Below, piece after piece: positions 6,859 through 63,372 of a DNA stretch of 64,000 nt. The translations under genes and the position numbers were made by a program. The DNA comes from Lingula anatina (Eukaryota > Animalia > Brachiopoda): positions 8,494,001 through 8,558,000 of the forward strand of contig CM120647.1 of NCBI GenBank assembly GCA_051362555.1, given 5' to 3'. The notes beneath the pieces are model-generated. The model did no database searches and was not told the DNA's origin. It saw nothing but the letters and a program-made list of their open reading frames with translations. Within the stretch, counting starts at the first letter, position 1, and every line of letters starts with the position of its first letter.

Positions 6859-19937
<13,079 letters not shown>

Positions 19938-21042: not shown

Positions 21043-22084
21043 TAGGTACTTTCTATGGTTGCACAGGTAAATTCTTACTTTTTTTTGGTATTACATATGC
21101 GTATAAATTCCTCGGTTAGTGTGCTTGTCTCGAAATGTGATACTTATGAAATGTTATTCCTTACAGATAAATGTTACAATAGGAAACTGTTTTTTACCCC
21201 ATGCCTTCTTAGTAGTGATGACTAAATTTATAACAGTAAGATATTGCTTGGTTACCATTATATCTGACGCCACTCTTTTCCAAGCCAAATCCTTTGGAAT
21301 AAAAACTTTGGGATATACTGTACCTGACGATCTCCATAGAGTTTTAGTTAAAAAATGTGTATCAGTGTCTCTTGTTTGTTTTCTCTAAAAATGCAAGGAT
21401 TTGACAATCTGAACCACACAAACTTCTAAAAGACCGAAATTAATTGATGCGAACTTGTGGAGGCAAATTTATGACCACAGACTAATTGCTCTAGTATATA
21501 ATTTGGCTTTTAAGGTACATTGAAACGTCATTTCAGGAATTTATAACCCGAGACCAAAATTGCTAGCATAACCTTTGTCTTTCAAAGTACCATCATTTCA
21601 GGAATTTATTACTGGAGGCTGAAATCGCTAGTGCATACTCTCTCTTTCAAGGTACAATTCTTATCATTTCCGGAAGGCTTTTGTGGTCCAAACTTGCCTC
21701 ACGGGTAAACCCATGTGGCTGGATTTTACTTTGTCCAGAAGCCCAGATAGTGGAGCGATCAACCCGATAGACAACAGAAAAAAAGTAACAGGAAAGAGCA
21801 GGATACTTTGCCTGCCGATCCAGACACTTTTAAGCACCATTGGTCGGAAACATGTGGATTTCTTTTCCCTCGACATAGAGGGAGCAGAGCTGGCGGTTCT
21901 CCAAGCTTTCCCGTGGGATAAAATAACGGTCGATATGTGGACAGTCGAAGTTCATAAACTTACAAAGAACTACAGTCAGGCTTTAAAAGATATTAGAGGG
22001 TTATTTCAGCGAACCGGAATGTATAAAGAAGTGCAACCACGAGGACAAGATTTACTGTTTGTGCGACAGGACGCACTCCTCTAA
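21043..22084 (+). pseudogene. FkbM/Star-like methyltransferase copy 1 (intron plus exon 2 only)
   Basis: The exon 2 homolog 21673-22084 is open (VDFFSLDIEGAELAVLQAFPWDKITVDMWTVE), but its acceptor is mutated (TTTCCG instead of TTTCAG). Exon 1 is missing and Tc1 sequence sits in its place. Confidence 0.8.
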
Positions 22085-22407
22085 ACATTAGAAGTATTTT
22101 TCTACATAATCATCTCCGCTATGGAGGATATGTTTTTACCATTATAAGTGTCTTAGTTAACAGCCTAACTCGAAATCTGTCTTGGCGGAGGTATACGAGG
22201 TATATGCGGAATGAATGCTCAATGACTGGCCAGTTGTCGGCAAGTAAAGTATTATTATTTTTTTAATCTCAAACAGGGCCGTACTACGGGACGCAGAGAG
22301 GATAATTGAGCTGTTATGGCGGAGGTATACGCTCTGTTATTGATAATTGAGCTGTCTTGACGAAGGTCTAAGCTCTATTGCTATTAATTGCCTTCTCTTT
22401 CTTTCTT

Positions 22408-22438
<31 letters not shown>

Positions 22439-22814
22439 GTTATTTTTTTATAACCATGCACAAAGAGGGGTTCAGTACGTGAATAGAAACACAAAACTTG
22501 CATTTTTACTCGAAAAGTGTTTTTTACTCACTTATATTAAGATGAGAATTTTGTATACATTTAAGAGAAACCCGAAAAAATGCCATTTCCCCAAATGTAG
22601 GCCAGTATACCTTATCGAACCCCCTAGATGCATTTTTGACTCAAAATCTTTTGCTTTGCATTGGTGATTAACATTACTGAATATTTCTATCCCCTGTGAT
22701 GAGGACTGTTGACATTAAAAAAGGTGCCACCTCCAGTCAAGTTGATGCGTTGCTTTGCTCTTATGTATGCTCGAGCCACAACCTCTGAATAAAAAAAATT
22801 GAGAGAAGGATATG

Positions 22815-22982
22815 CAGGGGCGGATCCAGAGCTATATACTGACAGTCTTCCAAATTATCTTTGTTGATTCATCCTCCAATTTTGACCGTCTTCCAACATT
22901 AAAAATTGGATACCCGTCAATGTAAACTTGAAAATCTGACCGTCTTCTGGAAGACCCAGAAGACGGCCTAAATCCGCCCCTG
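22815..22982. mobile_element. MITE with CAGGGGCGGAT TIRs and 5-bp TSD (ATATG)
   Basis: TIRs and flanking ATATG direct repeats are visible. Other family members lie at 45825-45991 and 60577-60735. Confidence 0.8.
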
Positions 22983-23399
22983 ATATGCATTGTGTGAGTA
23001 TCCTTCAAAGCCACACTTTTTTTTGTGATTAACACAATTTTTAGCATACGATATTAGTTCTTGTGCTTAACATGTCGTAGGTTTCGACTTATGAATGTTA
23101 ATTGTAAATAACTCGTGCATGCGCAGTGTGTCGCCCTTGTATAACCTTGCCTGCTGTATCATGAAAGGATGAACTCATGGAACTGTATGCGGGGATCCTA
23201 AGCCATAGTGTATGCCGTAGAGCGGCTCGTGAACTTGCTGAACATGACTGTAAAAAAAAATAATCTCAATCGTCAGTGCTCTTCTAGCAGAGACTCCGAT
23301 AGTGTATAAATCATGATACCTTTTAAGTTCGAGACAGCACAATCATATATTTTACCCCATGAATCTAGGCTTTCACCGTAGTAAAATGTTATACCAGCA

Positions 23400-23402
<3 letters not shown>

Positions 23403-23462
<60 letters not shown>
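23403..23462. repeat. (AT)n microsatellite
   Basis: About 30 perfect AT units. Confidence 0.95.
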
Positions 23463-23464
<2 letters not shown>

Positions 23465-23470
23465 TCTCTT

Positions 23471-23686
23471 AGACTGCATTCCCACAGATTTAAGATCGAT
23501 CTATCCCCGTGGCGAGTCTCACTAGATAACTGTCAGCTTAGCCAGCTTAAATGTCTGTCCCGCCTACTAATAGCTGTAAGGGGGTAATTAACTTCGTGCG
23601 CGCTCGGCTGACAGCAACATAGCGTGAACCCCCAGGGAGTTAGGTCGATCCAGATGGATCGATCTAAATCCGTGGGAATGCAGCCT
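23471..23686. mobile_element. MITE (PIF/Harbinger-like) with ~30-bp TIRs
   Basis: TIRs AGACTGCATTCCCACAGATTTAAGATCGATC / GATCGATCTAAATCCGTGGGAATGCAGCCT. An inverted relative lies at about 43438-43650, and the 3' halves recur at about 27118-27194 and 32736-32813. Confidence 0.65.
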
Positions 23687-25003
23687 TTTTCGTCAATGAT
23701 GCCCAATGAAATCTGTCTGGGAGAATTATGAATTGATGCTTCATACGTTAATCATACCGGTACCAACATAAATAATGTATATATGTATACATACTGAACA
23801 AATGGTACCGGCAAATACGGGGATGACAAAAGCATTGCAACACGTGGATTTCAGAGCAAAATATGACTTTCCTTCACTTTTGTGCTGTGACATTTACTTT
23901 GGTTCCAAACCACCCAAACGAGCATTCTTGCCTATACTTTGATTTTGGACCCATTTTGTCAAGAACTGGAGCCATGAAAATATACGGATTTTGGAAACTT
24001 ATTTCCAAACCATAAAACTATTACATGAATTGTTAAAACAGTTTCAATTTGACCATAACTGAAGCTTTTGTAATAGTTTCAAATGTTCAATCAAATATTT
24101 GATGTCCATTTCGCAGCCTCTATGCAAAACATTTCTGACTTTTAAAAATGTCTAATTTTCTATATCTGCTACAAACAATAGGCAATTCAAAGCAAGAGTG
24201 AAAAAACTGACGGTTGTTTGCCAACAAAGGGATATTATTCATTGATTTCAAATAACAAAGCATTTTTTACAGACAGGTCCAATCTCCACACCATATAAAT
24301 GATTTAGTACTTATCGCGTCATATCAGTCGTTTAAAGTTATGTAGTTTGTATAATGACTTGAGGGGCATGTAGGCCTACATTCTCGACATCCTTTCAATG
24401 ATACTAATGACGGAATTTCCCTCTCAGGGTTTTGATTTTATTAACAGAATTGCAGCTTACATATATCCCCCTAATAAGCTAGAAAGTGCATTTCCAAAAG
24501 GGTGAAAATGTATTTGTATCAACTTTTATGTTGTCTTGGCTTGTAGGCCTTTACAGTAAGACTGAAGAAGCGATTTTTTACTTTTGTCAAGCCCTGTAGA
24601 AGAGTTTTTGTGTGAGCTATATAGTGTTACATAAAGATTATCCACAATGTTACACGTGGATTTAGAAACTGCGTTGTAAGTTTTCGCCTGACAGCGTGTA
24701 CACAAGGCCCAGATGTAAGTATTATCAAATTTATTATCTGTTACAGTCCAGTTTCTATATGAAAGAATGAAAACTGACATTCACGCTGAACACTTACATA
24801 AACATATCGATGGTTGGAGTTTCTGTTCCTAATGGTGGGTTTTTACGTTAATGACATCGCCCACAAAGGTGGATCTTTCTCCATATTTGAAGTGAAGGCA
24901 AGCGGCAGTACGAGCTCCGAGGTTCTTCAAGATCTTTTCTCATAATAATTATTTATTTATTTATTATCTTATTAATTATTATTATTTTTTATTTTTGTAG
25001 AAA

Positions 25004-26388
25004 ATGCATTTAAAGAGGCATTTACTCGAGACATGCATAATAGTCTTAATAACTGTGTTCATAATGTTGGGATTTTACGTCAAAACAATCGCCCACAGTC
25101 GTGGACCTTCCTCCGCCTTTGAAATGAATGAAAGCAGTGCGGATACCGAGGTACTTCAAGATCTTTTCTCGGGAGAACTGGACGCACTGGATCCCAGGCT
25201 GCTACAGTTTGTGAGGCATAGGCTGCTCTATAAACCTACTAGGAGGCCCCTGAAGCTTAGGAAACCCGATAAAATCCATTATTCCCAAAACGGCCAAAGT
25301 CCTCTGGTTGATAAATTTCTTCGCCAACGACGAAACGGTTTCTTTGTGGAGGCAGGTGCATGGGATGGGGAGGAGAACAGCAACTCTTTATTTTTTGAAA
25401 AATCTCGCAACTGGACGGGAATGCTGATAGAACCCGACCCCCTAAACTTTGAACAACTTGTCATGAAAAACAGGTAGGCCTACTGCCTATGGTTGCACAG
25501 GTAAACTATTACTATTTTCTATTATTGCACATGTATATAAATTCCTCGGTAAGTGAGCTTGTCTCGGAATGTTATTCCTCGCAGATAAATTTTAAAATAG
25601 GGAACTTTTTTACGCCATGCCTTTTAACTAGTGATAACAGGTTTAATAACAGTAAGGGATGGCTTGGTTACCATAATATCTGACTCAACTTTCTTCCAAG
25701 CCAAATCCCACGACAGCTCGCTTTTTAACCGTAATTTATTCGACTGGGATAAACTGTACCTGACCGTGCCCTTAGAGTTTTAGTTAAACATGTGTATCAG
25801 TGTCCGGTGTTTCTTTTCTCTAAAAAATGCAAGGCTTTGACAACCTGAATTCCACAAACTTCTAAAAGACCAAAAATTAAGTCGAACTCATACCGAGGTA
25901 GAGGCAAATCTATGACTGAAGACTGAACCGTCAGTATATACTTTGTCTTTCAAGATGCGTATGCCAATCATTTCAGGAAGGCAATCGTGATCCAGACTTG
26001 CCTCACGGGTAAACCCATGTGGCTGGATTTCACGTTGTCCAGAAGCCCAGATAGTGGGGCGATCAACCCAATAGATAACAGAATAACTGTTACAGGAAAG
26101 AGCAGGATACTTTGCCTACCGATCCAGACGCTTTTAAGCACCATTGGTCGGAAACACGTGGATTTCTTTTCCCTCGACATAGAAGGAGCAGAGCTGGAGG
26201 TTCTCCAAGCTTTCCCGTGGGATAAAATAACGGTCGATATGTGGACGGTAGAAGTTCATGAACTCACAAAGAACTACCGTCAGGCTTTAAAAGATATCAG
26301 AGGGGTATTTCAGCGAACAGGAATGTATAAAGAAGTTCAACCTCTTGGACTAGATCTACTTTTTGTAAGACAAGACATACTCCTATAA
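25004..26388 (+). CDS. Type II membrane FkbM-family (Methyltransf_21, Star-like) methyltransferase, copy 2, 293 aa
   Basis: Exons 25004-25473 and 25977-26388 join as KNR|KAIVIQTCL. It has an N-terminal signal anchor (CIIVLITVFIMLGFYV) and the motifs YSQNGQ, GFFVEAGAWDGEENSNSLFFE..NWTGMLIEP and VDFFSLDIEGAELEVL. Confidence 0.88.
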
Positions 26389-28450
26389 ACATGAGACGTA
26401 TTTGTTTTGGATAATCAACTGCCCTAAAAAGATTGCATTTTACCATTATAGGATTTTAAGTTAACAACCTAACTCGAAAGTAATTGGCGACTTTTAATAA
26501 AATCTCCAGGGTTGATGTGGAGATAGCAAAACTTATAATAACTTAGATTTTGGTGATGGTCTATTGATTAATTAATGTCATTGGCAATTGAGTTGTCTTG
26601 GGGGAAGTCAACACTCTTTGTGTTATGCTCTAGTTATTTTTGGTTTTAAACAAAAGGTTTAGAAATCTATATTACAATGAAGGGTCTTCAACTCTCAAAA
26701 TTTTGATACATGTAATACCCCCGTCACACTTATTCGGAATCAGCAGGAATGAAGAAGAATGACCCTGAATGAAGAATTTTTAAAATTCGCACCACATTCG
26801 GGGAAAAATTCAAATTGACCTTAATTATTGTAAGAGTACCGTTGGAATACTCAGAATGCGCTTGAATTCGCCTGGAATGATGAGTGCACTTTCGACTTTA
26901 TTAGCTCTCAAAAGCAGTTCGAATGTAGTTGGAAAACTAGGAATATTTATAATGCTGTAAGAAGGCAGTAAGAATATTTAGAATATACTTTGAACGGAGC
27001 ACTAGTGTAGTTCGATTGCTGGCAACATTAATATTTCAGTTCATCCGAGGCACATTCGAAACATTCTGGCGGGATATAAAATTCCCGTCACACTAGAGGC
27101 AAAATAGCGTGAACCCCGACAGCAACATAGCGTGAACCCCCAGGGAGTTAGGTCGATCCAGATGGATCGATCTAAATCTGTGGGAATGCAGCCTTATTCG
27201 TCAATGATGCCCAATGAAATCTGTCTGGGAGAATTATGAATTGATGGTTCATACGTTTATCATACCGGTACCAGCATAAATAATGTATATATGTATACAT
27301 ATTGAACAAATAGTACCGGCAAATACGGGGATGACAAAAGCATTGCAACACGTGGATTTCAGAGCAAAATATGACTTTCCTTCATTTTTGTGCTGTGACA
27401 TATTCTTTGGTTCCAAACCACCCAAACGAGCATTCTTGCCTATACTTTGATTTTGGACCCATTTTGTCAAGAAGAACTGGAGCCATGAAAATATACGGAT
27501 TTTGGAAACTTATTTCTAAAGCATAAAACTATTACATGAATTGTTAAAACAGTTTCAATTTGACCATAACTGAAGCTTTTGTAATAGTTTCAAATGTTCA
27601 ATCAAATATTTGATGTCCATTTCGCAGCCTCTATGCAAAACATTTCTGACTTTTAAAAATGTCTAATTTTCTATATCTGCTACAAACAATTGGCAATTCA
27701 AAGCAAGAGTAAAAAAATTGACGGTTGGTTGCCAACAAAGGGATATTATTCACTGATTTCAAATAACAAAGAATTTTTACAGACAGGTCCAATCTCCACA
27801 CCATATAAATGATTTAGTACTTATCGCGTCATATCAGTTGTTTAAAGTTATGTAGTTTGTATAATGACTTGAGGGGCATGTACATTCTCGACATCCTTTC
27901 AATGATACTAATGATGGAATTTCCCTCTCAGGGTTTTGATTTTATTAACAGAATTGCAGCTTACATATATCCCCCAAATAAGCTAGAAAGTGCATTTCCA
28001 AAAGGGTGAAAATGTATTTGTATCAACTTTTATGTTGTCTTGGCTTGTAGGCCTTTACAGTAAGACTGAAGAAGCGATCTTTTACTTTTGTCAAGCCCTG
28101 TAGAAGATTTTTTGTGTGAGCTATATAGTGTGACATAAAGATTATCCACAATGTTACACGTGAATTTAGAAACTGCGTTGTAACTTTTCGCCTGACAGCG
28201 TGTACACAAGGCCCAGCTGTAAGTATTATTAAATTTGTTATCTGTTACAGTCCAGTTTCTATATGAAAGAATGAAAACTGACATTCACGCTGAACACTTA
28301 CATAAACATATCGATGGTTGGAGTTTCTGTTCCTAATGGTGAGTTTTTACGTTAATGACATCTCCCACAAAGGTGGATCTTCCTCCATATTTGAAGTGAG
28401 GGCAAGCGGCAGTACGAGCTCCGAGGTTCTTCAAGATCTTTTCTCATAAT

Positions 28451-28481
<31 letters not shown>

Positions 28482-28533
28482 CATTTATTTAATTATTATT
28501 TTATTATTATTATTATTATTATTTTTGTAGAAA

Positions 28534-29918
28534 ATGCATTTAAAGAGGCATTTACTCCAGACATGCATAATAGTCTTAATAACTGTATTCATAATGTTGG
28601 GATTTTACGTCAAAACAATCGCCCACAGTGGTGGACCTTCCTCCGCCTTTGAAATGAATGAAAGCAGTGCGGATACCGAGGTACTTCAAGATCTTTTCTC
28701 GGGAGAACTGGACGCACTGGATCCCAGGCTGCTACAGTTTGTGAGGCATAGGCTGCTCTATAAACCTACTAAGAGGCCCCTGAAGCTTAGGAAACCCGAT
28801 AAAATCCATTATTCCCAAAACGGCCAAAGTCCTCTGGTTGATAAATTTCTTCGCCAACGACGAAACAGTTTCTTTGTGGAGGCAGGTGCATGGGATGGGG
28901 GGGAGAACAGCGACTCTTTATTTTTTAAAAAATCTCGCAACTGGACGGGAATGCTGATAGAACCCGACTCCCTAAACTTTGAACAACTTGTCATGAAAAA
29001 CAGGTAGGCCTACTGCCTATGGTTGCACAGGTAAACTATTACTATTTTCTATTATTGCACATGTATATAAATTCCTCGGTAAGTGAGCTTGTCTCCGAAT
29101 GTTATTCCTTGCAGATAAATTTTACAATAGGGAATTTTTTTACGCCATGCCTTTTAACTAGTGATAACAGGTTTAATAACAGTAAGGGATTGCTTGGTTA
29201 CCATAATATCTGACTTAACTTTCTTCCAAGCCAAATCCCAGGACAGCTCGCTTTTTAACCGTAATTTATTCGACTGGGATAAACTGTACCTGACCGTGCC
29301 CTTAGAGTTTTAGTTAAACATGTGTATCAGTGTCCGGTGTTTCTTTTCTCTAAAATATGCAAGGCTTTGACAACCTGAATTCCACAAACTTCTAAAAGAC
29401 CAAAAATTAAGTCGAACTCATACCGAGGTAGAGGCAAATCTATGACTGAAGACTGAACCGTCAGTATATACTTTGTCTTTCAAGATGCGTATGCCAATCA
29501 TTTCAGGAAGGCAATCGTGATCCAGACTTGCCTCACGGGTAAACCCATGTGGCTGGATTTCACGTTGTCCAGAAGCCCAGATAGTGGGGCGATCAACCCA
29601 ATAGATAACAGAATAAATGTTACAGGAAAGAGCAGGATACTTTGCCTACCGATCCAGACGCTTTTAAGCACCATTGGTCGGAAACACGTGGATTTCTTTT
29701 CCCTCGACATAGAAGGAGCAGAGCTGGATGTTCTCCAAGCTTTCCCGTGGGATAAAATAACGGTCGATATGTGGACGGTAGAAGTTCATGAACTCACAAA
29801 GAACTACCGTCAGGCTTTAAAAGATATCAGAGGGGTATTTCAGCGAACAGGAATGTATAAAGAAGTTCAACCTCTTGGACTAGATCTACTTTTTGTAAGA
29901 CAAGACATACTCCTATAA
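28534..29918 (+). CDS. FkbM-family Star-like methyltransferase, copy 3 (motif substitutions)
   Basis: Exons 28534-29003 and 29507-29918 give an open frame, but the motif region reads RNSFFVEAGAWDGGENSDSLFFKK...EPDSL. Confidence 0.8.
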
Positions 29919-30179
29919 ACATGAGACGTATTTGTTTTGGATAATCAACTGCCCTAAAAAGATTGCATTTTACCATTATAGGATTTTAAGTTAACAACCT
30001 AACTCGAAAGTAATTGGCGACTTTTAATAAAATCTCCAGGGTTGATGTGGAGATAGCAAAACTTATAATAACTTAGATTTTGGTGATGGTCTATTGATTA
30101 ATTAATGTCATTGGCAATTGAGTTGTCTTGGGGGAAGTCAACACTCTTTGTGTTATGCTCTAGTTATTTTTGGTTTTAA

Positions 30180-31314
30180 AGGACAATGTTCATGTAAAAA
30201 TCCATTTCTCGAATTTTGAAGATTCAGCACTCAATCTATACACTAGAGGTATGTTTTAATCGATCCCCGCCATTTAAAAATTATAAAAACAATCTATTAA
30301 TAGTAAAAAAGCGTTTTAGTAAACCTCACCTCAATATGCATAAATGAAGCAACAGATCTGGGTCACGTGGTACTGTGACGACAATCACGATAAAGGTCTA
30401 TGAGACTCAACTGAGCTGCATGTGCAAACAGACAGAATGATTTTGGAAAGTTGTGTTGAACGGAGTTGAGCAATTTTCTTTATGCCTCAGTGTGTTGCCG
30501 TGGGATTCACAAAAATTGCAGCACTCCTTGACTATCTTTCTTTATCTGTGACGGTCTTCCGTGACTAACTTGCTAACTTTGGTGACAATAGTTGCGATCC
30601 TCGCGATCTCGGTCACCTCAGGTGTTTTAGATCATATCAAAAGCTGATAGTCTTTTAGATACTGTCATCAGTTGGCAAGCTTACTAATTGCTGATGCATT
30701 TTTAAATTCATTGTAGTTGACCAAGAGCTCGTTAACAATAAAACCTGTTAATTATGCACCGCTGCAATTCCCAAGCCAGGTAATAACAGGTATGAAACTC
30801 GTCTTGGTGGGCTTTCATATTTTTCAATATATCTCATTTATTTCATGGGGTTATTTTATTGGTATTTGTAAATGACGTTAAATATCAATACTTAAACAAT
30901 TAAGAGAGAACAGTTTCATTAGCTCTGTATGTATATATTCAAATTCTTGTTTTTCTTTTTATCAAGAGCTTGTAAAATATGTGGGTATTACATGTACCTC
31001 CAATATATAAAAAGAAAAACAAGACTTTGAATTAAACAATTAAGTTCTAACACGGTCGCGAACATTAATAAAAGAAATTGCTCTCAGGGTATCTTGAAGC
31101 TTCCGTGGAAGAAAACGTGTTGAGGAAAAACAGGAAAAAGAGCGTTATATTAAAGAAAAAATGGGAACTGCTGTAATAAAATGGTTCGTTATCCTAATTC
31201 GTTTATGCATTGAGGATTTGTTTCTGAAGATTATTTCATCTGAAATATTAAATAATTTAAAAGATTTATCATTTTATATCTTGAAACGCAAATTCTGCGT
31301 CAGTACGCAATTTT

Positions 31315-31365
<51 letters not shown>

Positions 31366-32264
31366 AAATTTGTAAGCTTATAACACCGTGCTATAAAGAT
31401 CTACTCAAGAAAAAAATTTGCTTGGGTAAAATTGAGTACGGAATGAACTGGAGACACTTGGCTTGTCATTAAGTTTACACGAAAATATGTCAGGTAACTT
31501 TATACTGTCTTTGAAAGAGTAAAGATCGAAAGATATCTAGTACCCCCAGGTCTACGGGAGCTGCTCTTTGTAACTAACGCACAGGTAGATTTTTACCTGA
31601 GATAACTGGAGTAAAGCTTAGATAGAGAGTGCGTTCGATACAAGCAAGACATTTAACCCTCTAATTAAGAGGTAAAGGAAGTTCCAGTTAGATGGATGAT
31701 TAAGATAGGACTTGTAAAGGTAACGGGCATTGTTTACCTCAGTTTAATAAAAGTATGCAAGACGGAGTGTCAGCGGTTTAATAAAATAAATTGAATTTCA
31801 CAAATAACATGGACCTCACATGCAATAATCAACATTTCCCTTAACTCATTCAAATGCAGTGTTTTATACAACTTGGGCTAACCATGATTAAATGCTTGTT
31901 AAAGAATTGACTAGACGGGAAATGGTTTTACACAGCTTCACGAGGATTTAGACCCCTCGGGTAAGAGATTTGAATGAGTATAAACTTTTATCAGAAGCCA
32001 GAGAAGTCATCTTACAGGTAGACAATGCAGCTCAGTTTAACAGCTAAGCACGCTCTATTCTCCAGTGGCTCGATTGTCGTCATCAGACCACGTGACAACG
32101 TATCTCATTAACTCTCAGGCCGAGCAAATAGGACGTTTTTTAAAGCCAAAAATTTACAAAATGAGCTTTTAATTTGTGTATTTGGATAAAGATATCGTTA
32201 GTTGGGCATGTTTTCTGAAGAATATGTTCCGTTCAGGCCATTCTGACGGCATGAAGCAAACCCT
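30180..32264. mobile_element. Non-autonomous Kolobok-like DNA transposon, TTAA TSD
   Basis: Present only in repeat unit 3; the other units have the empty site GGTTTTAAACAAAAGG. TTAA is duplicated at 30176-30179 and 32265-32268. It has AG...CT termini, imperfect TIRs and inverted subterminal GTCACGTGG...TGACGACAATC motifs (about 30362 and 32071). No long ORF. Confidence 0.8.
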
Positions 32265-34132
32265 TTAAACAAAAGGTTTAGAAATCTATATTACAATGAA
32301 GGGTCTTCAACTCTCAAAATTTTGATACATGTAATACCCCCGTCACACTTATTCGGAATCAGCAGGAATGAAGAAGAATGACCCTGAATGAAGAATTTTT
32401 AAAATTCGCACCACATTCGGGGAAAAATTCAAATTGACCTTAATTATTGTAAGAGTACCGTTGGAATACTCAGAATGCGCTTGAATTCGCCTGGAATGAT
32501 GAGTGCACTTTCGACTTTATTAGCTCTCAAAAGCAGTTCGAATGTAGTTGGAAAACTAGGAATATTTATAATGCTGTAAGAAGGCAGTAAGAATATTTAG
32601 AATATACTTTGAACGGAGCACTAGTGTAGTTCGATTGCTGGCAACATTAATATTTCAGTTCATCCGAGGCACATTCGAAACATTCTGGCGGGATATAAAA
32701 TTCCCGTCACACTAGAGGCAAAATAGCGTGAACCCTGACAGCAACATAGCGTGAACCCCCAGGGAGTTAGGTCGATCCAGATGGATCGATCTAAATCTGT
32801 GGGAATGCAGCCTTATTCGTCAATGATGCCCAATGAAATCTGTCTGGGAGAATTATGAATTGATGGTTCATACGTTTATCATACCGGTACCAACATAAAT
32901 AATGTATATATGTATACATATTGAACAAATAGTACCGGCAAATACGGGGATGACAAAAGCATTGCAACACGTGGATTTCAGAGCAAAATATGACTTTCCT
33001 TCATTTTTGTGCTGTGACATATTCTTTGGTTCCAAACCACCCAAACGAGCATTCTTGCCTATACTTTGATTTTAGACCCATTTTGTCAAGAAGAACTGGA
33101 GCCATGAAAATATACGGATTTTGGAAACTTATTTCCAAACCATAAAACTATTACATGAATTGTTAAAACAGTTTCAATTTGACCATAACTGAAGCTTTTG
33201 TAATAGTTTCAAATGTTCAATCAAATATTTGATGTCCATTTCGCAGCCTCTATGCAAAACATTTCTGACTTTTAAAAATGTCTAATTTTCTATATCTGCT
33301 ACAAACAATTGGCAATTCAAAGCAAGAGTAAAAAAATTGACGGTTGGTTGCCAACAAAGGGATATTATTCATTGATTTCAAATAACAAAGAATTTTTACA
33401 GACAGGTCCAATCTCCACACCATATAAATGATTTAGTACTTATCGCGTCATATCAGTTGTTTAAAGTTATGTAGTTTGTATAATGACTTGAGGGGCATGT
33501 ACATTCTCGACATCCTTTCAATGATACTAATGACGGAATTTCCCTCTCAGGGTTTTGATTTTATTAACAGAATTGCAGCTTACATATATCCCCCAAATAA
33601 GCTAGAAAGTGCATTTCCAAAAGGGTGAAAATGTATTTGTATCAACTTTTATGTTGTCTTGGCTTGTAGGCCTTTACAGTAAGACTGAAGAAGCGATCTT
33701 TTACTTTTGTCAAGCCCTGTAGAAGATTTTTTGTGTGAGCTATATAGTGTGACATAAAGATTATCCACAATGTTACACGTGAATTTAGAAACTGCGTTGT
33801 AACTTTTTCGCCTGACAGCGTGTACACAAGGCCCAGCTGTAAGTATTATTAAATTTGTTATCTGTTACAGTCCAGTTTCTATATGAAAGAATGAAAACTG
33901 ACATTCACGCTGAACACTTACATAAACATATCGATGGTTGGAGTTTCTGTTCCTAATGGTGGGTTTTTACGTTAATGACATCGCCCACAAAGGTGGATCT
34001 TTCTCCATATTTGAAGTGAAGGCAAGCGGCAGTACGAGCTCCGAGGTTCTTCAAGATCTTTTCTCATAATAATTATTTATTTATTTATTTATTATCTTAT
34101 TAATTATTATTATTTTTTTATTTTTGTAGAAA

Positions 34133-35517
34133 ATGCATTTAAAGAGGCATTTACTCCAGACATGCATAATAGTCTTAATAACTGTGTTCATAATGTTGGG
34201 ATTTTACGTCAAAACAATCGCCCACAGTCGTGGACCTTCCTCCGCCTTTGAAATGAATGAAAGCAGTGCGGATACCGAGGTACTTCAAGATCTTTTCTCG
34301 GGAGAACTGGACGCACTGGATCCCAGGCTGCTACAGTTTGTGAGGCATAGGCTGCTCTATAAACCTACTAGGAGGCCCCTGAAGCTTAGGAAACCCGATA
34401 AAATCCATTATTCCCAAAACGGCCAAAGTCCTCTGGTTGATAAATTTCTTCGCCAACGACGAAACGGTTTCTTTGTGGAGGCAGGTGCATGGGATGGGGA
34501 GGAGAACAGCAACTCTTTATTTTTTGAAAAATCTCGCAACTGGACGGGAATGCTGATAGAACCCGATCCCCTAAACTTTGAACAACTTGTCATGAAAAAC
34601 AGGTAGGCCTACTGCCTATGGTTGCACAGGTAAACTATTACTATTTTCTATCATTGCACATGTATATAAATTCCTCGGTAAGTGAGCTTGTCTCGGAATG
34701 TTATTCCTTGCAGATAAATTTTAAAATAGGGAACTTTTTTACGCCATGCCTTTTAACTAGTGATAACAGGTTTAATAACAGTAAGGGATTGCTTGGTTAC
34801 CATAATATCTGACTTAACTTTCTTCCAAGCCAAATCCCAGGACAGCTCGCTTTTTAACCGTAATTTATTCGACTGGGATAAACTGTACCTGACCGTGCCC
34901 TTAGAGTTTTAGTTAAACATGTGTATCAGTGTCCGGTGTTTCTTTTCTCTAAAATATGCAAGGCTTTGACAACCTGAATTCCACAAACTTCTAAAAGACC
35001 AAAAATTAAGTCGAACTCATACCGGGGTAGAGGTAAATCTATGACTGAAGACTGAACCGTCAGTATATACTTTGTCTTTCAAGATGCATATGCCAATCAT
35101 TTCAGGAAGGCAATCGTGATCCAGACTTGCCTCACGGGTAAACCCATGTGGCTGGATTTCACGTTGTCCAGAAGCCCAGATAGTGGGGCGATCAACCCAA
35201 TAGATAACAGAATAAATGTTACAGGAAAGAGCAGGATACTTTGCCTACCGATCCAGACGCTTTTAAGCACCATTGGTCGGAAACACGTGGATTTCTTTTC
35301 CCTCGACATAGAGGGAGCAGAGCTGGAGGTTCTCCAAGCTTTCCCGTGGGATAAAATAACGGTCGATATGTGGACGGTAGAAGTTCATGAACTCACAAAG
35401 AACTACCGTCAGGCTTTAAAAGATATTAGAGGGGTATTTCAGCGAACAGGAATGTATAAAGAAGTTCAACCACTTGGACTAGATCTACTTTTTGTAAGAC
35501 AAGACATACCCCTATAA
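34133..35517 (+). CDS. FkbM-family Star-like methyltransferase, copy 4, 293 aa
   Basis: Exons 34133-34602 and 35106-35517, with intact motifs and splice sites. Confidence 0.88.
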
Positions 35518-35844
35518 ACATGAGACGTATTTGTTTTGGATAATCAACTGCCCTAAGAAGATTGCATTTTACCATTATAGGATTTTAAGTTAACAACCTA
35601 ACTCGAAAGTAATTGGCGACTTTTAATAAAATCTCCTGGGTTGATGTGGAGATAGCAAAACTAATAATAACTTAGATTTTGGTGATGGTCTATTGATTTA
35701 TTAATGTCGTTGGTAATTGAGTTGTCTTGGGGGAAGTCAACACTCTTTGTGTTATGCTCTAGTTATTTTTGGTTTTAAACAAAAGGTTTAGAAATCTATA
35801 TTACAATGAAATGGGTCTTCAACTATCAAAATTTTGATACATGT

Positions 35845-36300
35845 AATACCCCCGTCACACTTATTCGGAATCAGCAGGAATGAAGAAGAATGACCCTGAA
35901 CGAAGAATTTTTAAAATTCGCACCACATTCGGGGAAAAATTCAAATTGACCTTAATTATTGTAAGAGTACCGTTGGAATACTCAGAATGCGCTTGAATTC
36001 GCCTGGAATGATGAGTGCACTTTCGACTTTATTAGCTCTCAAAAGCAGTTCGAATGTAGTTGGAAAACTAGGAATATTTATAATGCTGTAAGAAGGCAGT
36101 AAGAATATTTAGAATATACTTTGAACGGAGCACTAGTGTAGTTCGATTGCTGGCAACATTAATATTTCAGCTCATCCGAGGCACATTCGAAACATTCTGG
36201 CGGGATATAAAATTCCCGTCACACTAGAGGCAAAATGATTAAGAATGACGTCTGGAATACAATTCTTTGTGCATTCCTGGATATTCGAAAAAGTCACGTT
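35845..36300 (+). repeat. DNA-transposon-like repeat fragment starting ATACCCCCGTCACAC
   Basis: Rich in GAAT sub-repeats. Shorter copies end at the duplication junctions (about 26714-27105 and 32334-32724). No matching right TIR is seen. Confidence 0.4.
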
Positions 36301-36667
36301 GTAATAACCAGTCGGTGGTTATACACCTTTTTACAGTTAGGCTACTCTTTCACCAGTAATTTAAGACAACTGAGACAGGCTCTCTCTATGTCACTGCTTT
36401 TATACAAGAACTTAATTTACATTTTAAATTAACTTCTATGACTGACATGCAACATGCCATGCCTTAAGACCTTAAAACTTAATTGTGGATACAATTTGCA
36501 TAAACGAATATGTAAATCACATATATGGAAATTAGCTATCAGTGCTATTAATAGTTCACCACATGCGAACTGTCATGCTTAGATCCATCTGAATATATAA
36601 ATTAATTGAACGAATATGTAAATCACATTTATTCAAATTTATACTATCAGAACTAATTAACGGTTCA

Positions 36668-38390
36668 CTACAACGTAGCTCCGTCTTCTTTGTTCGGGTG
36701 CACGTCTGCTTCAACCTCATTCACCATGGAATGGCTGCTCACACTTGAAACCATGTCACTGTTTTTGAAATCACCCACGTCAACCACATCTATTTCTCTT
36801 TCCCCTCGTCCATTTACACCGAGATCTGGACAACGGACTGAAGTAACTTGTGAATCATGGTCATTTTGAGCAGGAGGCTGAACCCCCATGCTTTCAAGAG
36901 AGATGGATGGCAGAGAAACAATACTAGTGGACATGTCATTTTGGGAGATGACGGACCGACTGCCCTCTTTTCGCAAAGCGACGTTCCCCAGAGCTGATGG
37001 AGCTTTGTTTCCCAGGGTACCATTACCAGATGACGTCATGGACGTAGCATCACGTGACCTGCTTAGCTCAACGTCACGTGCCAAGACAGACTGAGACCGA
37101 CTAGGTGATTCAATGTGTGTGGTGTGAACGCCAGAGCTGGAAATGCTGTGACTCACACCTTCCACGCTGCCCACGCTCTCTGATACACCCTCGCGTGTTC
37201 TCGTCCAGGTCTTGCGCAGGCTGGTCCACAAGGTCGCACAGCGTCTTTTTGCTAAAGAAACCACTGCATACAACTCGTGTCGGTATTTAGGCGAGCTGAA
37301 GCAGTACAGCCAGAAATTAATTGAGTGGTTGATATAAAAGAGAAGAATGGATACCGTAAACACCCACTGACGGGCGACGCTTTGTGTCGTGCCCCACAAA
37401 TTGATTGTACCCGTGTTGAGAAGATTAATTGGCCCCACAAGAATGACGTAAGCAAACGTCACAGCGAGGAGCATCCGCGTGACTTGCCTCTGGCTTTTCT
37501 CTCGCGAATCAAGAATGGGCGTTTTGTGGTTCGCCGTACGGTGTTGCCCAGTATCCTTTCCGTCATCTGGCGCAGATTGACTTCGTATTCTTTCAGTCGC
37601 CTTCCTTGTCTCGTGGATTTTGAGGAAGTTTATAACCAGAAGTGACGTCAGAGGTATGATCCAATACAACGTTAACGAAAGCCACTTGTGGATGTAAGCA
37701 TAGTACGAAAGTGTACCGGGACTTCCGACCGGTCTGGCCTCGTAGACGAGAAAGTTCCAACATATTGTGGTATTGCACTCCGGTACATTTTCGTAAAGTA
37801 GATCGGTAAAGAGCACGGGCGAATTGATAACTAATACGAACACGGCGACACCGATAATTATCCATCTGGTTCTCTTCATGGTGCAAAGTGTGCTCGCCTT
37901 GATGGGGAACCTCACTTTCACAAATCTTTCCGCGCTCATTATGGTTAAAATCAGTCCGGTGTGCTCTGGTGCGGAGTAGAACACGAAAAAGGCTATTTTA
38001 CACAGAGCTGGATTGGGAGATATAACGTCAACTTTTAGGTCATACTCCAACAAAAACACAAAACCGTCCAAGAGTAGCATCGAGTCTGATATAGCTACAG
38101 AGATCATGAAGTTGCAAGTTGTAGTGTGACGCAGTGATTCTCGGCAGAACACAGCAATTGAGAGAAGATTGAAGAAGATTCCTAATGAATAAATCAAACA
38201 TCGAGAGATTCTTCTAGTTATAACCACGCCAGGGTTTTCTCCGGCCGCTAAGTACCGCGGCACAGTGCAATTAGTGATAGAATCCGCCGTGATGTCACTT
38301 TTATTATACGTATGATATCCGGAACGCGACCCTACAATATTTGTCGGTCCCAGAACCTCTTGCGGCTTATTGGGTAACTCATACACAGCC
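36668..38390 (-). CDS. Class A (rhodopsin-like, peptide-receptor-like) GPCR paralog without its own N-terminus; terminal exon of a putative RPN2-GPCR chimera
   Basis: 572-aa ORF with 7 TM helices, MSAERF (DRY equivalent) and YINHSINFWLY in TM7, paralogous to 53862-55874. The first 15 nt (38376-38390) and the CAG acceptor come from RPN2 exon 10. Confidence 0.8.
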
Positions 38391-38605
38391 CTGAAAAGGT
38401 CAACATCAACATATGCAATCTTTAAGGTTGACGTAAAATATAGTACTAAAGGTCAACATCACAAAACCATGCTAGAGGTCAAGTTCAGTAAATTAAGCAA
38501 TGAAGGTCAACACTACAAAATAAAATACTTCTTGTCCACATGAAAGATGGTACCAGAAGTCAACATCATGAAATGCACCACTTTGAAAAGTATTCAAACT
38601 TGCAT

Positions 38606-38651
<46 letters not shown>

Positions 38652-38776
38652 ATGTCAATTAAAAACATCTGTTTTGTTAATTTCCAAGCTATATAGTTCT
38701 CATTAATTATTTATTACGATGGTGGAGGTACTTGACATTTTATGAGTCATATTAAAAAATGTATATCAGCCTCTAT

Positions 38777-38850
38777 GTGGATCAGTGAATTTCTTCAACA
38801 CTCTCAGGCTTTATAGCCTTCAGGTTATCGTATTGAAACATCACTTCCAC
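38777..38850 (-). ncRNA. Duplicate of C/D snoRNA copy A (guide degenerate)
   Basis: Boxes and terminal stem are kept, but the guide reads CAATACGATAAC instead of AGAAACGATAAC. Confidence 0.45.
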
Positions 38851-39585
38851 AAAAACAAGCTTCCATTTAAATTAAGAATGTAAAAAGAAACATATAAATA
38901 AAAAACGAAAACAATGCCATCTGAAAGTGCCCATTATCCACCAGACTGGATCTTCAAAAGAATCAAGAACATTGCCATTTAATATTTTTTATAAACCCCC
39001 CAAAAAATGGTTTTCAAATTGGATAACTGTTCCAAAGAGATAGATTAACTATAAAATGCACTCACTTGTCATCTGCTGTTGGTGTGAACTGTTTCTTGCT
39101 CAAGACAATGGCATCGTCACCAACGTTACCCCCAGTGCCCGCGGTGACAGTCATGCCACCAAGACTCACCCCCAGGAGGTTACGCACACGTACCTAGGAC
39201 ACAAGAAAAAAATGTTTATGCCCTTAAAGCAATTTACATTAAAAGTATGAATCACTTGTTCACATTAGGTATTCACAAAAAAATAATAATTAGGGTCAAC
39301 ATTTGTGGTATTCAAACATAATACTTATCAAATGCAAGTCCGATAGTTTGTTTCAAACAATTTCAGTATATTTTGGCTAATACAGTATATTTTGGCTAAT
39401 ACTTTCATAAACCTGGTTTGCACAACAAATTTCACCTTAGCAGTAAGCCATCTGTAATACCCTAAGTCACAAGAAAAATGCTGCATTTCTTTCCTATTCA
39501 TAACACATGAAGAATGCTGCATTTCTTTCCTATTTATAACACTTATTTAACCAAAGTTACCTAACTAGAAGCAAAAAGAGTACTA

Positions 39586-39658
39586 TGGATCAGTAATTGT
39601 TGTCTCTACTTTGAGGTCTAGTTGCCCTCAGGTTATCGTTTCTGAACATCACTTCCAC
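39586..39658 (-). ncRNA. Duplicate of C/D snoRNA copy B (guide intact)
   Basis: Reads GTGGAAGTGATGTTCAGAAACGATAACCTGA...CTGATCCA. Boxes and guide are identical to copy B while the spacers differ. Confidence 0.62.
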
Positions 39659-42600
39659 CAAATTTTGCAGCATTACTCATGTGACCATTATGAACAATGT
39701 TTAAACCTCAAGTGATGACAAATTCTATTCACATCACCAAAAAGGAGGCAAATCTTTCAGAACAAGTTAACCATCAAATGACTCTAAGATCCTTTTCAAC
39801 TACTTTTTACAAGATAAAATTTAAGTCCAAATACAAACAACTGAAAATAATTTTATTTATACAATCGAAAAAAAAATCTTCCAAAAGATTGGGAAAGTCC
39901 CCCCCCCCCCCTTATATTTCCACTGCCAACCTTATTATCTGTAAGTGTTTTGACAGCTGAGAGCAGATGTGCTGCCGTCTTCAGCTGCTGTACCGACTTC
40001 CGGCCCAGGAAATAGTTGGTAAATTTTATAATCTTCTCCTGAAAATATTAACAGGAAAGCATCATTACAATGTTTTCAAGATAAAACATTTCATTTCAAA
40101 ATCAAACAAGGAAACACTGAATTCATAACAAAATTCTTCTTACAGCAAAGTGAATCAAGTGTACAGCCTTTGCAGATTTTTTCCACAAAACTTTAAATTC
40201 ATTGATAAGTTAAAAAATTTAAAAAGGGGAAAAATTGTACCATTGGATTAAAACATGTACAAATAAATAAATAAAATAAAATAATAAATTCCAAAATTTT
40301 CTCCTTACCTCATCTATAGGAGGGACCTTGTCAACCTTTGTTGCCAGTTTATAAGCTGAGTCAATTACAACTGACGTTGTAAACAGCCCTCCTTCGAACT
40401 GTAAATATTTATCATCGACCTCGTCGGCCTGTGCGACCACATCCTCTATCCTTTCAAAGAATTTGCTGACATCCCCACTGAGTTGAGCAGCTGCTAAGAA
40501 GGCATAGCCCAGACTGAAGTGAAACCGGATAATATTTAAATTTTAAGCGGTTAATTTTTTTAAATACTTTCACATTTTAAGAGTTTCGTCGTTCATACAG
40601 AGAGAACAGTTCTTACTTTTAAACAGGTTTTATAATTCAAATTAGTAAATGTCAGTAAGGAATGCATTATGGAACCTGCACATTGTACAGGTTCCATAGC
40701 TGGTAGCAATGGTCAGACAACAGGGATTTTTTTTTATTTGTTATTTATTTATTTATTTTTTTTTTGCAGAGGGGGAGGGAGGGGGTTTGGGTAGGGGGTG
40801 GGTGGGTACTGCAAGCTGTGAGTGTAGTACACTATATATGTTTATATGCTGGTCTCACCTGAGAGCGCTGTCATCTTTTTTCAGTACCTCTAGCAGGGTC
40901 TGGCTGGCGTTGGCTGAGTCCACTAAAACAACAGAGAAAATAATTAAATAAAAATCTCCAATAAGAATTTTTTGTGAAAAAGGGCAACTTATTATGGTAA
41001 AAGTATGATGTTAAGAGCTTGAAAATGGTTTGTAAAATTCTGAACATATCTAGATATCATATAAAGAGAACATCTTTAAAATTTACAAGAAAATTTAATG
41101 TTGCCTGTGTATTATTTTGTTTCCAAACTTTGGCTCAATTGGTTTCAGAAAAAAAAAAGAAATTCAAACCCAGCTTACCTGTCACACCCAGATTTTTTGC
41201 TGCTAAAATTGCATAGTAAATGTTCACCACTGGCTGATCTGTCTTAAGACTCTCTGCAATTGTCTCGTTGGCAGTGTTCGCTGTCAGCTAAAGTATACAT
41301 AAAATGTCATTTCAGTATTCAAATATCATCTTTAGAAAAAGCTATTATTTACAACAAAACATTAAATAAATAAATAAATAAATATTGATTTATTTATTTC
41401 AACAGTATTCAAATATCATCTTTGAATCATTTACAGCAAAACATTAAATAAATAAATGAATAAATAAATAAATATTTATTGATATTCAACAGTCTGAACC
41501 CCAAAATCTATCAGTTGATGCTTGTGCAATGATTAAACAAAGTTTTTGTCTCACAGCAAAATATCATCAAGTTTTGACAGAAGGGTTGTAATGCAGGAAA
41601 CTATTACAACAAAACAAAATAAAAGATATTCCTAAAGAAGGATAATCCCTCTCCAAGTATTACCCAGTTATTACCTACCTGGCATCCACCCAAATTTTTG
41701 GCCGCTGAAGAGGCAAAGAATAAACTTTCTACGCTACTCTGGTCCAAGTTGACTTGAAGATAGTTGCATACATCCTTAAAAAATTAACTAAATTGGTAAA
41801 AAATGATAATCAAATTCAAAAATTGCGAAACATAACAGTATTTAAGTTGTAAAAAAATATGCGTTTATATAAAAGTTTTATAAACTAAACTTAGATATAT
41901 TTAGATATATAAACATGGGCTTCTTAAATCTTAATATCAATTTTTATATATTCATTCAAAAAAAGTCTTTTATTTCAAAGAGAGCAAACAAGCAAACATT
42001 ATTTTTTTTACGATTATAATTATTAAAATCATAAGTTTTGAAGACTCAATTGTATTTACTAACCTTAGAGTTAGGGATGACTACCCCCAGCAACGTCAGG
42101 CCCATGATGGAGTAGTGGGCAACCTCTACATCTGAGTACGGTGCTGCTGCTTCAAACACTGATCTCAGCCGTGTCTGATCAGCAGCAGAAAAATATGATG
42201 ATGGCGTCAAAGCCTGTCCCATTACGGACAGCAAGGCAAATGCAACTAATAGAATGGTACCTGAATGAAATACGAAAAACTGTTATGTCTGCAGGTGTAT
42301 AATCTTCATGCCTTTATTTATTTTTCATTTCTACACTTGCTTGCATTATTATCTACTTAGCTTGTTTCTTCTTCTTATTAATTATTTTGATTTTATTACT
42401 ATAATTGTAGCAATTGTTGTCAATTCTATTTATCTATACTTTCTTTTAATTTTTTCACCCCCCCCCCCCCCCCCCCCCCCGGAAATCAAGTCAACGCAAG
42501 GCAAGTTCCCCGCAGTTGAGCAATTATGATATAGACATCAATTCTACAAGTTTTAACAGAACAAAAATAACTCCGGAAATCAATCATTTCCCCCGGAAAT

Positions 42601-43437
42601 CAAGTCAACGCAAGGCAAGTTCCCTACAGTTGAGCAATAATGATATAGACATCAGTTCTACAAGTTTTAACAGAACAAAAATAACTTGAACTTATATGAA
42701 TGGAAGCCAAGAAATAAATCTTAATCCTTCAGATAGCCAAACAGGAAACCCAACTTTAAAAGAGTCAAACTTTCAAAGCGTGTCATTTTATGGACTGTCT
42801 AAAAGATATATATGAACCATTAACTGCATATGAGAAACTTTTATCTCTTTTTGCTGACACAAACTTAAAGACAAAATAAAAGTTAAAAGTTAGAGATATA
42901 TTGATGTGGCACATAAGCACCCACATGTCAACATGGCGGCTACCGGCTAGAATCCGCACCGGAATACTTAACAATTTTCTTTCAAAGTACACCGCATTGC
43001 AAAGTGACCCCAACTTGACAGTAAGATCCGTGTATGGCGGAGCAAAGTGAATTCCATTTCATCAGAAAATGAAAAAAAAAACGGCCGTATTTCCTTTTCA
43101 TTTGATAAATGAGTAGTAATAGAAGGACGCGAGAGGTAGTAAAAAAAAAATGGTAGAATGTGGCAGAATGTTTTGTATCATCTGTTTTATAACTATTTTG
43201 TATTTATTTTATGTGTTTTACTTCACTTAAATGGAGACGCTTATATTGGTTGACGTAACAAGTGTGTACGCAAGCTTTGAAAGGTAGGTGTTTGTTTACT
43301 ATTGAATTGGATGAGCATAAAGACGCGCATCCGTTATTATTGATCCGAAACCTGATATGAAATTGAACAGTTTAACGCGTCTCACAATGTGTAAATAAAC
43401 AGGGACCGCAATCAATCAGGTGAGGCTATTCTAACAC

Positions 43438-51903: not shown

Positions 51904-52333
51904 TGTCTCCAACGCCAAGCAGGTTTGCCGTGGTTTGCGTGCTCTTTGCACGGTGGGGCCTCTTGCCAATCCGCTAGTCTCAAGACGCCAGCTGGTACGT
52001 TTATGCTCTAAAAGTGTCCCCTTTTTAACAAGTCACGTTACGTGGTGGCGTCTCTGAACACTCAGTTGTACATACACGTACGTATATGCAGAATATCTAA
52101 CCACAGGTTATCACCAAATAGACAAAGCCAATTGCAACAATAACTAGAGTGACATTATCAGAGAGCACCAGCCAATAAAAGCAAAAGCCATCCGGTGAGC
52201 CATCTTTTGAAAATACAGTTATGGGTTAGAGTGTGTTGAACCTTCCCCTGGTTCAAATAACCAATCAGAGAATAAAGGCACCAGGACTAGGTTTACGATT
52301 ATGGTGGAACATTTGCGGTTTTATTCTGAGCCC

Positions 52334-57042: not shown

Positions 57043-63372
<6,330 letters not shown>

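What the first reader, a model, noticed from the sequence alone, without database searches (positions are those of the whole stretch)
36668..42260. Putative chimeric gene: ribophorin II lumenal N-terminus spliced in frame to a 7TM GPCR
Seen: duplicated RPN2 exons 2-7 and 9 keep their exact lengths, GT-AG sites and open frames. The exon 10 acceptor plus 15 nt (K-AVYEL) runs directly and in frame into a GPCR ORF (PNKPQEVLGPT..., versus KLHYKPREVLGPT in the parent at about 55625), replacing the receptor's own signal peptide and first ~80 aa. My manual count gives 16 synonymous vs 4 replacement differences from the parent in exon 2, and 5 vs 0 in exon 3, so the copy was under purifying selection for much of its history. 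Topology is coherent: the ER-lumenal RPN2 domain would become the receptor ectodomain. Inference: a lineage-specific ~880-aa RPN2-GPCR fusion receptor, an architecture I do not know from any described family. The selection signal could predate the fusion.
Basis: partly seen in the sequence, partly recalled or inferred. Interest (0 to 1): 0.88.

Follow-up and report, generated by a model that had tools for sequence, protein, structure and literature searches.

The report
Ribophorin–receptor chimeric gene in a brachiopod
In a lamp-shell (likely Lingula) genome, the front half of a housekeeping glycosylation gene is joined in frame to a seven-membrane-span receptor gene, likely by one tandem duplication; the hybrid shows signs of past selection, but no RNA from it was seen, so it is likely a once-working hybrid receptor that is now rarely expressed or decaying.

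Summary
The chimera is in the sequence: nine GT-AG exons give an open 879-codon frame with the RPN2 signal peptide, its whole N-terminal domain, a broken piece of domain 2, then a rhodopsin-family 7TM receptor lacking its first 82 residues. Block order and equal ages of both halves (dS 0.22 and 0.20, introns 0.19) fit one tandem duplication with breakpoints inside both genes. The RPN2 domain was under purifying selection after duplication (p 8e-7, worst case). The receptor half has no start codon before TM1, yet its frame is open. Against present function: 0 of 81 RNA reads laid from three runs were shown to be chimera-specific, the 7TM-coding part had no RNA depth, allele-level receptor changes look neutral (16:7), and one donor site is weakened. 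A late deletion joining two formerly whole duplicates is not excluded, and no independent read was shown to bridge the junction. No RPN2-GPCR protein was found in the databases or papers searched. Verdict: a real, unusual chimeric gene of a known kind, likely functional once, unproven now.

The parts
42925..43024 (-). Duplicated RPN2 proximal upstream stretch (~90 nt) and exon 1 with the ATG (42934-42925)
   Evidence: Homology to 19735-19834 ends about 90 nt above the ATG; donor GT kept
42064..42260 (-). RPN2-derived exon 2 (predicted signal peptide, start of N-terminal domain)
   Evidence: 197 nt, GT-AG, 16 syn / 4 nonsyn
41679..41774 (-). RPN2-derived exon 3
   Evidence: 96 nt, 5 / 0
41179..41287 (-). 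RPN2-derived exon 4; K108N makes a new N-glycosylation sequon
   Evidence: 109 nt, 6 / 1
40859..40922 (-). RPN2-derived exon 5; K142N makes a second new sequon
   Evidence: 64 nt, 2 / 2
40309..40513 (-). RPN2-derived exon 6
   Evidence: 205 nt, 11 / 5
39931..40038 (-). RPN2-derived exon 7, end of the N-terminal domain (Pfam PF05817 ends at parent residue 260); donor departs further from consensus than the parent's
39700..39731 (-). Site of the ~0.5 kb deletion that removed exon 8 (69 nt, in frame)
   Evidence: Intron alignment; self-BLAST break
39066..39193 (-). RPN2-derived exon 9, remnant of domain 2, likely a linker
   Evidence: 128 nt, 5 / 7; three of seven changes are to Gly
38375..38390 (-). 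RPN2 exon-10 acceptor plus AVYEL; fusion junction at 38377-38376
36668..38377 (-). GPCR-derived part of the last exon: 54-residue stalk with the family's NC[ST]xP motif, 7TM domain (PF00001), long tail, stop at 36670-36668
36628..36633 (-). Candidate poly(A) signal 35 nt after the stop
   Evidence: AATAAA, the only one within 370 nt; use not shown
6859..19744 (-). Parent RPN2 gene, 18 exons, 634 aa
   Evidence: 4 differences from P0003
53862..55874 (-). Parent GPCR-A, single coding exon, 670 aa, breakpoint at Leu83 (55628)
   Evidence: 27 differences from P0001
49004..52032 (-). Paralogue GPCR-B, present only in the right-hand duplicate unit
21042..36236 (+). FkbM-domain methyltransferase array (one older partial copy, three 97-98% identical units), present only in the left-hand unit

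Best explanation
This is a chimeric gene likely made by one tandem duplication whose two breakpoints fell in RPN2 exon 10 and at codon 83 of the neighbouring receptor gene, and it was likely translated as a single signal peptide-RPN2 domain-linker-7TM receptor for most of its history, but is likely rare, tissue-restricted or decaying now. Shown: the in-frame structure, the block order, equal ages of both halves, and constraint on the RPN2 N-terminal domain. Inferred working: the RPN2 start and signal peptide replace the receptor's own signal peptide and pro-region; the RPN2 domain folds on its own in the ER lumen and becomes the ectodomain; the broken domain 2 became a linker; the stalk and 7TM core are kept, so ligand class and G-protein signalling would be the parent's. 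The likely gain is a new expression pattern from the RPN2 start, with the RPN2 domain conserved mainly because it must fold to pass ER quality control, not because it binds a new ligand.
For: Order on the minus strand is GPCR-A, GPCR-B, RPN2 5' copy | GPCR-A 3' copy, FkbM array, RPN2: a tandem duplication of 55628-14821 with reciprocal loss of FkbM and GPCR-B. dS 0.22 [0.16-0.29] for RPN2, 0.20 [0.14-0.27] for the 7TM, intron distance 0.19. Exons 1-7: 14 replacement vs 43 synonymous; a neutral copy is rejected even if the parent took no replacements (p 7.6e-7). At 101 7TM sites shared with two paralogues, 9 changed on the copy branch vs 22.7 expected at d 0.10 (p 0.001) or 15.9 at d 0.07 (p 0.046). 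The first Met in the receptor exon is its residue 95, after TM1, and the parent's Met121 is Val, so a whole receptor needs the RPN2 ATG. Exons 9-10 carry 7 replacement vs 6 synonymous, unlike exons 1-7 (Fisher p 0.049), as expected if domain 2 broke early. The domain is predicted as a self-contained all-helical fold (pTM 0.87; TM-score 0.85 to RPN2 in 8b6l). An independent DNA run holds copy-type RPN2 pieces (1-4 other letters where copy and parent differ at 14-57 sites) and copy-lineage receptor pieces with no stop or exon frameshift among the rows listed.
Against: RNA: 81 reads laid from three runs of three studies, no depth over 36721-38488; listed loose ends run into parent exon 8 (14 and 7 reads) or parent exon 10 (18 reads). 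Upper bound about 0.14-0.18 RPKM if these animals carry an allele within 4%. Differences between the window and run X4 in the receptor are 16 replacement to 7 synonymous among 23 listed rows, as neutral drift would give (p 0.64). Pairwise 7TM counts alone do not reject a neutral copy (p 0.18 with parent omega 0), nor does the conserved-site test at d 0.05 (p 0.30). Only 1 of 26 conserved exon 9-10 sites changed (4.0-5.7 expected if neutral), which weakens the early-break argument. Conserved-site changes are 9 on the copy vs 1 on the parent branch. The public model P0043 ends after exon 7 without the receptor exon. The junction is not shown bridged in independent DNA.
Confidence: 0.5

Rival explanations
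1. Two steps: the whole cluster was duplicated, both whole genes were kept by selection, and a recent deletion joined RPN2 exon 10 to the receptor copy in frame by luck; the product is a young non-functional chimeric pseudogene.
For: Also predicts equal ages of both halves. Fits the absence of RNA, neutral-like recent receptor changes, and the constraint left at conserved exon-9 sites. A short neutral spell is compatible with an open frame (p 0.06 at d 0.01).
Against: Needs two late frame-keeping events by chance (1/3 for the junction; 3 of 8 internal exons 2-9 are multiples of three). Seven replacements in exons 9-10 are unlikely if that part was constrained for 85-90% of the branch (p 0.015-0.026). 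No remnant of the missing RPN2 3' part or receptor 5' part in the window.
Confidence: 0.27
2. The selected product is a soluble signal peptide plus RPN2 N-terminal domain (read-through or other splicing after exon 7); the receptor exon is a passenger.
For: Constraint is strongest on exons 2-7 (omega 0.09); the exon-7 donor is weakened and read-through stops after about 25 codons; the public model P0043 is a 254-aa domain-only protein.
Against: Does not explain the open receptor frame (survival 2e-5 at d 0.1 with indels, 0.014 without) or its constraint at conserved sites. No listed RNA read group was copy-type in exons 2-7 either. P0043 is parent-type at all 9 diagnostic residues after exon 2, so it may be an assembly or annotation mosaic.
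Confidence: 0.1
3. The junction is an assembly error or private to one haplotype.
For: No contig was shown to bridge 38376; run X4 has no depth at 38047-38267. Its receptor pieces differ by about 3.4% but its RPN2-copy pieces by about 0.8%, so they could come from an unseen third paralogue.
Against: Both halves are 10-20% diverged from their parents and meet at 2 nt of homology, not at a long repeat. Both copy lineages occur in an independent run. P0043's last 7 residues map to the FkbM units downstream, so another assembly also has an RPN2-derived exon set upstream of that array. No closer receptor paralogue was found.
Confidence: 0.06
4. The RPN2 domain has an active role: it keeps its binding to ER chaperones or the oligosaccharyltransferase and makes an ER-resident receptor, or serves as a new ligand-binding ectodomain.
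For: [quoted passage not shown] The fold resembles alpha/alpha-barrel binding proteins such as intrinsic factor (E 1e-3, TM 0.61). Two of 21 replacements make new sequons (p 0.027, post hoc).
Against: No binding or localisation data; conserved residues K142, A222 and S239 changed in the copy; no RNA seen; the fold likeness is generic.
Confidence: 0.07

Closest known systems
Tandem-duplication chimeric genes of Drosophila (PMC5460883, passages read; Quetzalcoatl cited in its reference list; Sdic recalled)
   Same: A duplication that ignores gene borders joins the 5' end of one gene to the 3' end of a neighbour, leaves both parents whole, and often changes expression.
   Different: Here the partners are an oligosaccharyltransferase subunit and a receptor; the join is old (dS about 0.2); expression is not shown.
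Ribophorin II (RPN2/SWP1; human 6s7o chain F, E 6e-150 for P0003)
   Same: Signal peptide, whole PF05817 domain and exon structure.
   Different: Domain 2 is broken; domain 3 and the C-terminal membrane domain are absent, so it cannot be a normal subunit.
Lingula orphan rhodopsin-family peptide-receptor-like GPCRs (P0001, labelled orexin receptor type 2-like; P0002, labelled growth hormone secretagogue receptor)
   Same: 7tm_1 and Srw Pfam hits, ERF and NFWLY motifs, extracellular cysteines, NC[ST]xP stalk; 80% identity to P0001.
   Different: Own signal peptide and RxxR-bearing pro-region are replaced by 310 RPN2-derived residues. The database labels are automatic and say nothing tested about ligand.
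GPCRs with recruited N-terminal domains (PMC3971589, passages)
   Same: Rhodopsin-family receptors do recruit N-terminal domains, mostly in animals.
   Different: The word ribophorin does not occur in that paper's main text (its supplementary architecture figures were not seen); the recruited domain here is from a core ER enzyme complex.

Membership tests
Tandem-duplication chimeric gene | 5' part of one gene joined to 3' part of another with both parents kept nearby in the expected order | tested here: met
Tandem-duplication chimeric gene | Both halves of one age | tested here: met
   dS 0.22 and 0.20, introns 0.19; the receptor tail is an exception at 0.06
Tandem-duplication chimeric gene | Fusion made by the duplication itself, not by a later deletion | tested here: inconclusive
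   Exon 9-10 tests point both ways
Tandem-duplication chimeric gene | Spliced chimeric transcript | tested here: not met
   None among 81 reads laid from 3 of the 9 RNA runs listed; tissues unknown, 6-25% of each run read
Rhodopsin-family GPCR (PF00001) | 7tm_1 domain above the curated cut-off | tested here: met
   86.1 bits vs 30.5, profile 2-260 of 260
Rhodopsin-family GPCR (PF00001) | TM3 and TM7 motifs and TM3-ECL2 cysteines kept | tested here: met
   Same as the parent in the alignment; motif roles are recalled
Rhodopsin-family GPCR (PF00001) | Ligand binding and G-protein coupling | not testable with these tools
   Needs expression and assay
Ribophorin II subunit of OST | N-terminal domain PF05817 | tested here: met
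   Parent residues 28-260 lie in exons 2-7
Ribophorin II subunit of OST | Domains 2, 3 and the C-terminal membrane domain | tested here: not met
   Only 48 residues of domain 2 remain

The most novel reading that the evidence does not exclude
A working receptor whose ectodomain is the lumenal domain of an oligosaccharyltransferase subunit, born in one duplication, tuned by new glycosylation sites and a glycine linker, and still made in a tissue or stage not sampled here, possibly signalling from the ER or using the RPN2 fold to bind a ligand.
Probability: 0.2. Interest if true: 0.8.

Novelty: new variant of a known kind. Interest (0 to 1): 0.5.

Why it matters
If made as protein, it shows a receptor gaining a whole ectodomain and a new promoter in one step from an unrelated housekeeping neighbour, with both parents beside it for comparison. 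It would also be a natural test of whether the poorly understood RPN2 N-terminal domain folds and works outside the oligosaccharyltransferase. If it is a pseudogene, it is a tidy but ordinary case of chimeric gene birth and decay.

Tried and rejected
No whole genome is held for this window, so copies elsewhere in the genome could not be sought. The run search listed no RNA holder among indexed runs; this blank is not used as evidence. No fine-scale lay over the junction was obtained, so bridging in other animals and expression in the 6 other listed RNA runs are open. A single-sequence fold of the receptor exon was uninformative (mean pLDDT 41). No fold of the whole chimera was made. Searches for a fused protein: near-length search with the receptor exon gave 2 hits among 7999 candidates scored, neither fused; shorter search 1 distant hit of 1779; exon-6 search 40 hits of 143, all with RPN2 domains only; of the 150 listed out of 1902 RPN2-like representatives, 17 long or partial ones were scanned and none has a 7TM domain. 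Paper searches: searches gave 0 papers; one search gave 1 unrelated listing; searches gave nothing on this locus (listings only). That RPN2's ER-retention signals lie in its membrane and cytosolic parts is recalled, not found. Remnants of FkbM in the right unit or GPCR-B in the left unit: none, only shared repeats. Microhomology-driven joining: only 2 nt, no support. Earlier scan notes: none. Errors corrected: wrong exon ends, and the wrong-frame receptor numbers, which were discarded and redone.
Full report
Observation. The stretch 36668-42934 on the minus strand holds nine exons that splice, all at GT-AG sites, into an open frame of 879 codons. Eight are copies of exons 1-7 and 9 of the whole RPN2 gene at 19744-6859; the ninth starts with the RPN2 exon-10 acceptor and five codons and runs in frame into a copy of the single-exon receptor gene at 55874-53862 from its codon 83. 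The closest named proteins are from Lingula anatina: P0003 differs from the parent RPN2 at 4 residues and P0001 from the parent receptor at 27.

Anatomy. By Pfam limits on P0003 the chimera has the predicted signal peptide, the whole N-terminal domain (28-260), then 48 residues of domain 2, which has lost exon 8 and is cut at residue 334; domain 3 and the membrane domain are absent. The receptor part keeps a 54-residue stalk with an NC[ST]xP motif shared with GPCR-B, the full 7tm_1 domain, and a long tail. It loses the signal peptide and a pro-region with an RxxR motif (that this is a protease site is inferred). The N-terminal domain, folded from the related model P0043, is predicted as a self-contained helical fold (pTM 0.87) that matches RPN2 in solved translocons. 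In human cells this domain is flexible, membrane-distal and contacted by an accessory lumenal protein (PMC9892003, passages). Topology is coherent by inference: signal peptide, lumenal domain, TM1.

Origin. On the minus strand the order is GPCR-A, GPCR-B, RPN2 5' copy, GPCR-A 3' copy, FkbM array, RPN2. This is what one tandem duplication from GPCR-A codon 83 to RPN2 exon 10 leaves, followed by loss of FkbM from one unit and GPCR-B from the other; no remnants of the lost genes were found. Ages agree: dS 0.22 [0.16-0.29] for the RPN2 part, 0.20 [0.14-0.27] for the 7TM, 0.19 for 3213 aligned intron sites. Chimeras made this way are known in Drosophila and often change expression (PMC5460883, passages). 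A larger duplication followed by a deletion predicts the same order and ages, so this does not date the fusion.

Selection. In exons 1-7 there are 14 replacement and 43 synonymous differences; even with every replacement on the copy branch, a neutral copy is rejected (p 7.6e-7; omega at most about 0.25 with equal rates). For 17 of 21 replacements the parent's residue is the commoner among 32 outgroups, for 1 the copy's, 3 are ties, so the copy is relaxed but not neutral. Exons 9-10 have 7 replacements to 6 synonymous (Fisher p 0.049 against exons 1-7), 3 of them to glycine (p 0.014, post hoc). That suits an early break of domain 2, but only 1 of 26 conserved sites there changed, against 4.0-5.7 expected if neutral. 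For the 7TM, pairwise omega is 0.38 and does not reject a neutral copy (p 0.18); at 101 sites shared with two paralogues, 9 changed in the copy and 1 in the parent, fewer than neutral at d 0.07-0.10 but not at 0.05. The receptor exon has no Met before TM1, so its open frame is only useful with the RPN2 ATG. Whole-history neutrality is excluded by frame survival (4e-6 or less); a last neutral spell of d 0.01 is not (0.06). Two replacements create new glycosylation sequons (p 0.027, post hoc). Ancestral polymorphism is part of dS and was not removed; the tests at lower d bracket this.

Other animals. Run X4, from another study than the two best holders, has copy-type RPN2 pieces: 1-4 other letters in six listed contigs where copy and parent differ at 14-57 sites. 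Its two listed receptor contigs match the parent at 5 of 18 and 2 of 15 diagnostic sites and otherwise the copy. Among the 23 listed differences in the receptor exon, none is a stop, 16 are replacements and 7 synonymous, as drift would give (p 0.64); three of the nine conserved-site changes are absent from X4, so they are recent. 23 further difference rows and 67 of 75 contigs were not shown. No contig was shown to bridge 38376. A public model, P0043, on a scaffold of the same length as RPN2's, has copy-type residues in exon 2, parent-type residues after it, and a 7-residue end that maps to the FkbM units; it does not include the receptor.

Expression. Three RNA runs from three studies (3 of 9 listed; 6, 6 and 25% of each read) gave 26, 21 and 34 laid reads and no depth over 36721-38488. 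The listed loose ends go into parent exon 8 (14 and 7 reads), parent exon 10 (18 reads) or parent-type exon 6 and exon 4 sequence; two loose-end rows were not shown. The 95% upper bound is about 0.14-0.18 RPKM. Limits: tissues are unknown, it is unknown whether these animals carry the locus, alleles over 4% different are missed, and the tool drops some reads unseen. The exon-7 donor has drifted from the parent's, and one of its two changes is absent from X4.

Mechanism. Most likely (0.5): a one-step chimera that was translated as a receptor with a passive, folding-constrained RPN2 ectodomain and a new expression pattern, and is now rare or decaying. Shown: structure, order, ages, constraint on the RPN2 domain. 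Inferred: one-step origin, translation, topology, surface location, parent-like signalling. Rivals: late fusion of two whole duplicates giving a pseudogene (0.27), a domain-only product (0.10), an active role of the domain (0.07), assembly error (0.06).

Comparison and novelty. It works like a rhodopsin-family receptor with a recruited N-terminal domain, a known route (PMC3971589, passages; its supplementary architecture figures were not seen and could bear on novelty). It is not a ribophorin II subunit, since domains 2-4 fail. No RPN2-7TM protein was found or 46-47, and no paper; these searches are incomplete for eukaryotes. It is a new variant of a known kind. Interest 0.5: a striking architecture with real evolutionary support, held down by the lack of any transcript and by signs of recent drift.

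Noticed in passing
window 36673-37270 vs 53911-54520: The receptor tail has dS 0.06 and omega about 2 between copy and parent, against dS 0.20 in the 7TM; the public allele P0001 shares 10 of its 27 differences with the copy, all in the tail. Gene conversion or fast tail evolution.
   Followed up: partly
window 21042-36236: Array of FkbM-domain methyltransferase genes: one older copy lacking its first coding exon (dS 0.25-0.30, omega about 0.13) and three 97-98% identical units; the middle unit differs in the otherwise shared first-exon motifs.
   Followed up: partly
window 20343-20858: DDE-type transposase fragment (PF13358, below cut-off) upstream of the parent RPN2, beyond the end of homology with the copy.
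   Followed up: no
window 10132-10959 and 12848-13684: Inverted repeats of about 830 nt, 96% alike, with internal sub-repeats, inside RPN2 intron 11; likely a DNA transposon.
   Followed up: no
window 8580-8833 and 14157-14411: A 256-nt element, 96% alike, in two RPN2 introns.
   Followed up: no
window 49004-52032: GPCR-B has a long N-terminus of about 250 residues with an RLRR motif, introns in the 7TM (GPCR-A has none) and a tandem repeat in its tail.
   Followed up: partly
window 57100-62122: Exons of a receptor tyrosine kinase with Ig domains on the minus strand.
   Followed up: no
window 2150-4110: A small plus-strand gene tail-to-tail with RPN2, resembling the splicing factor SF3B14 by eye (recalled label; sequence).
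   Followed up: no
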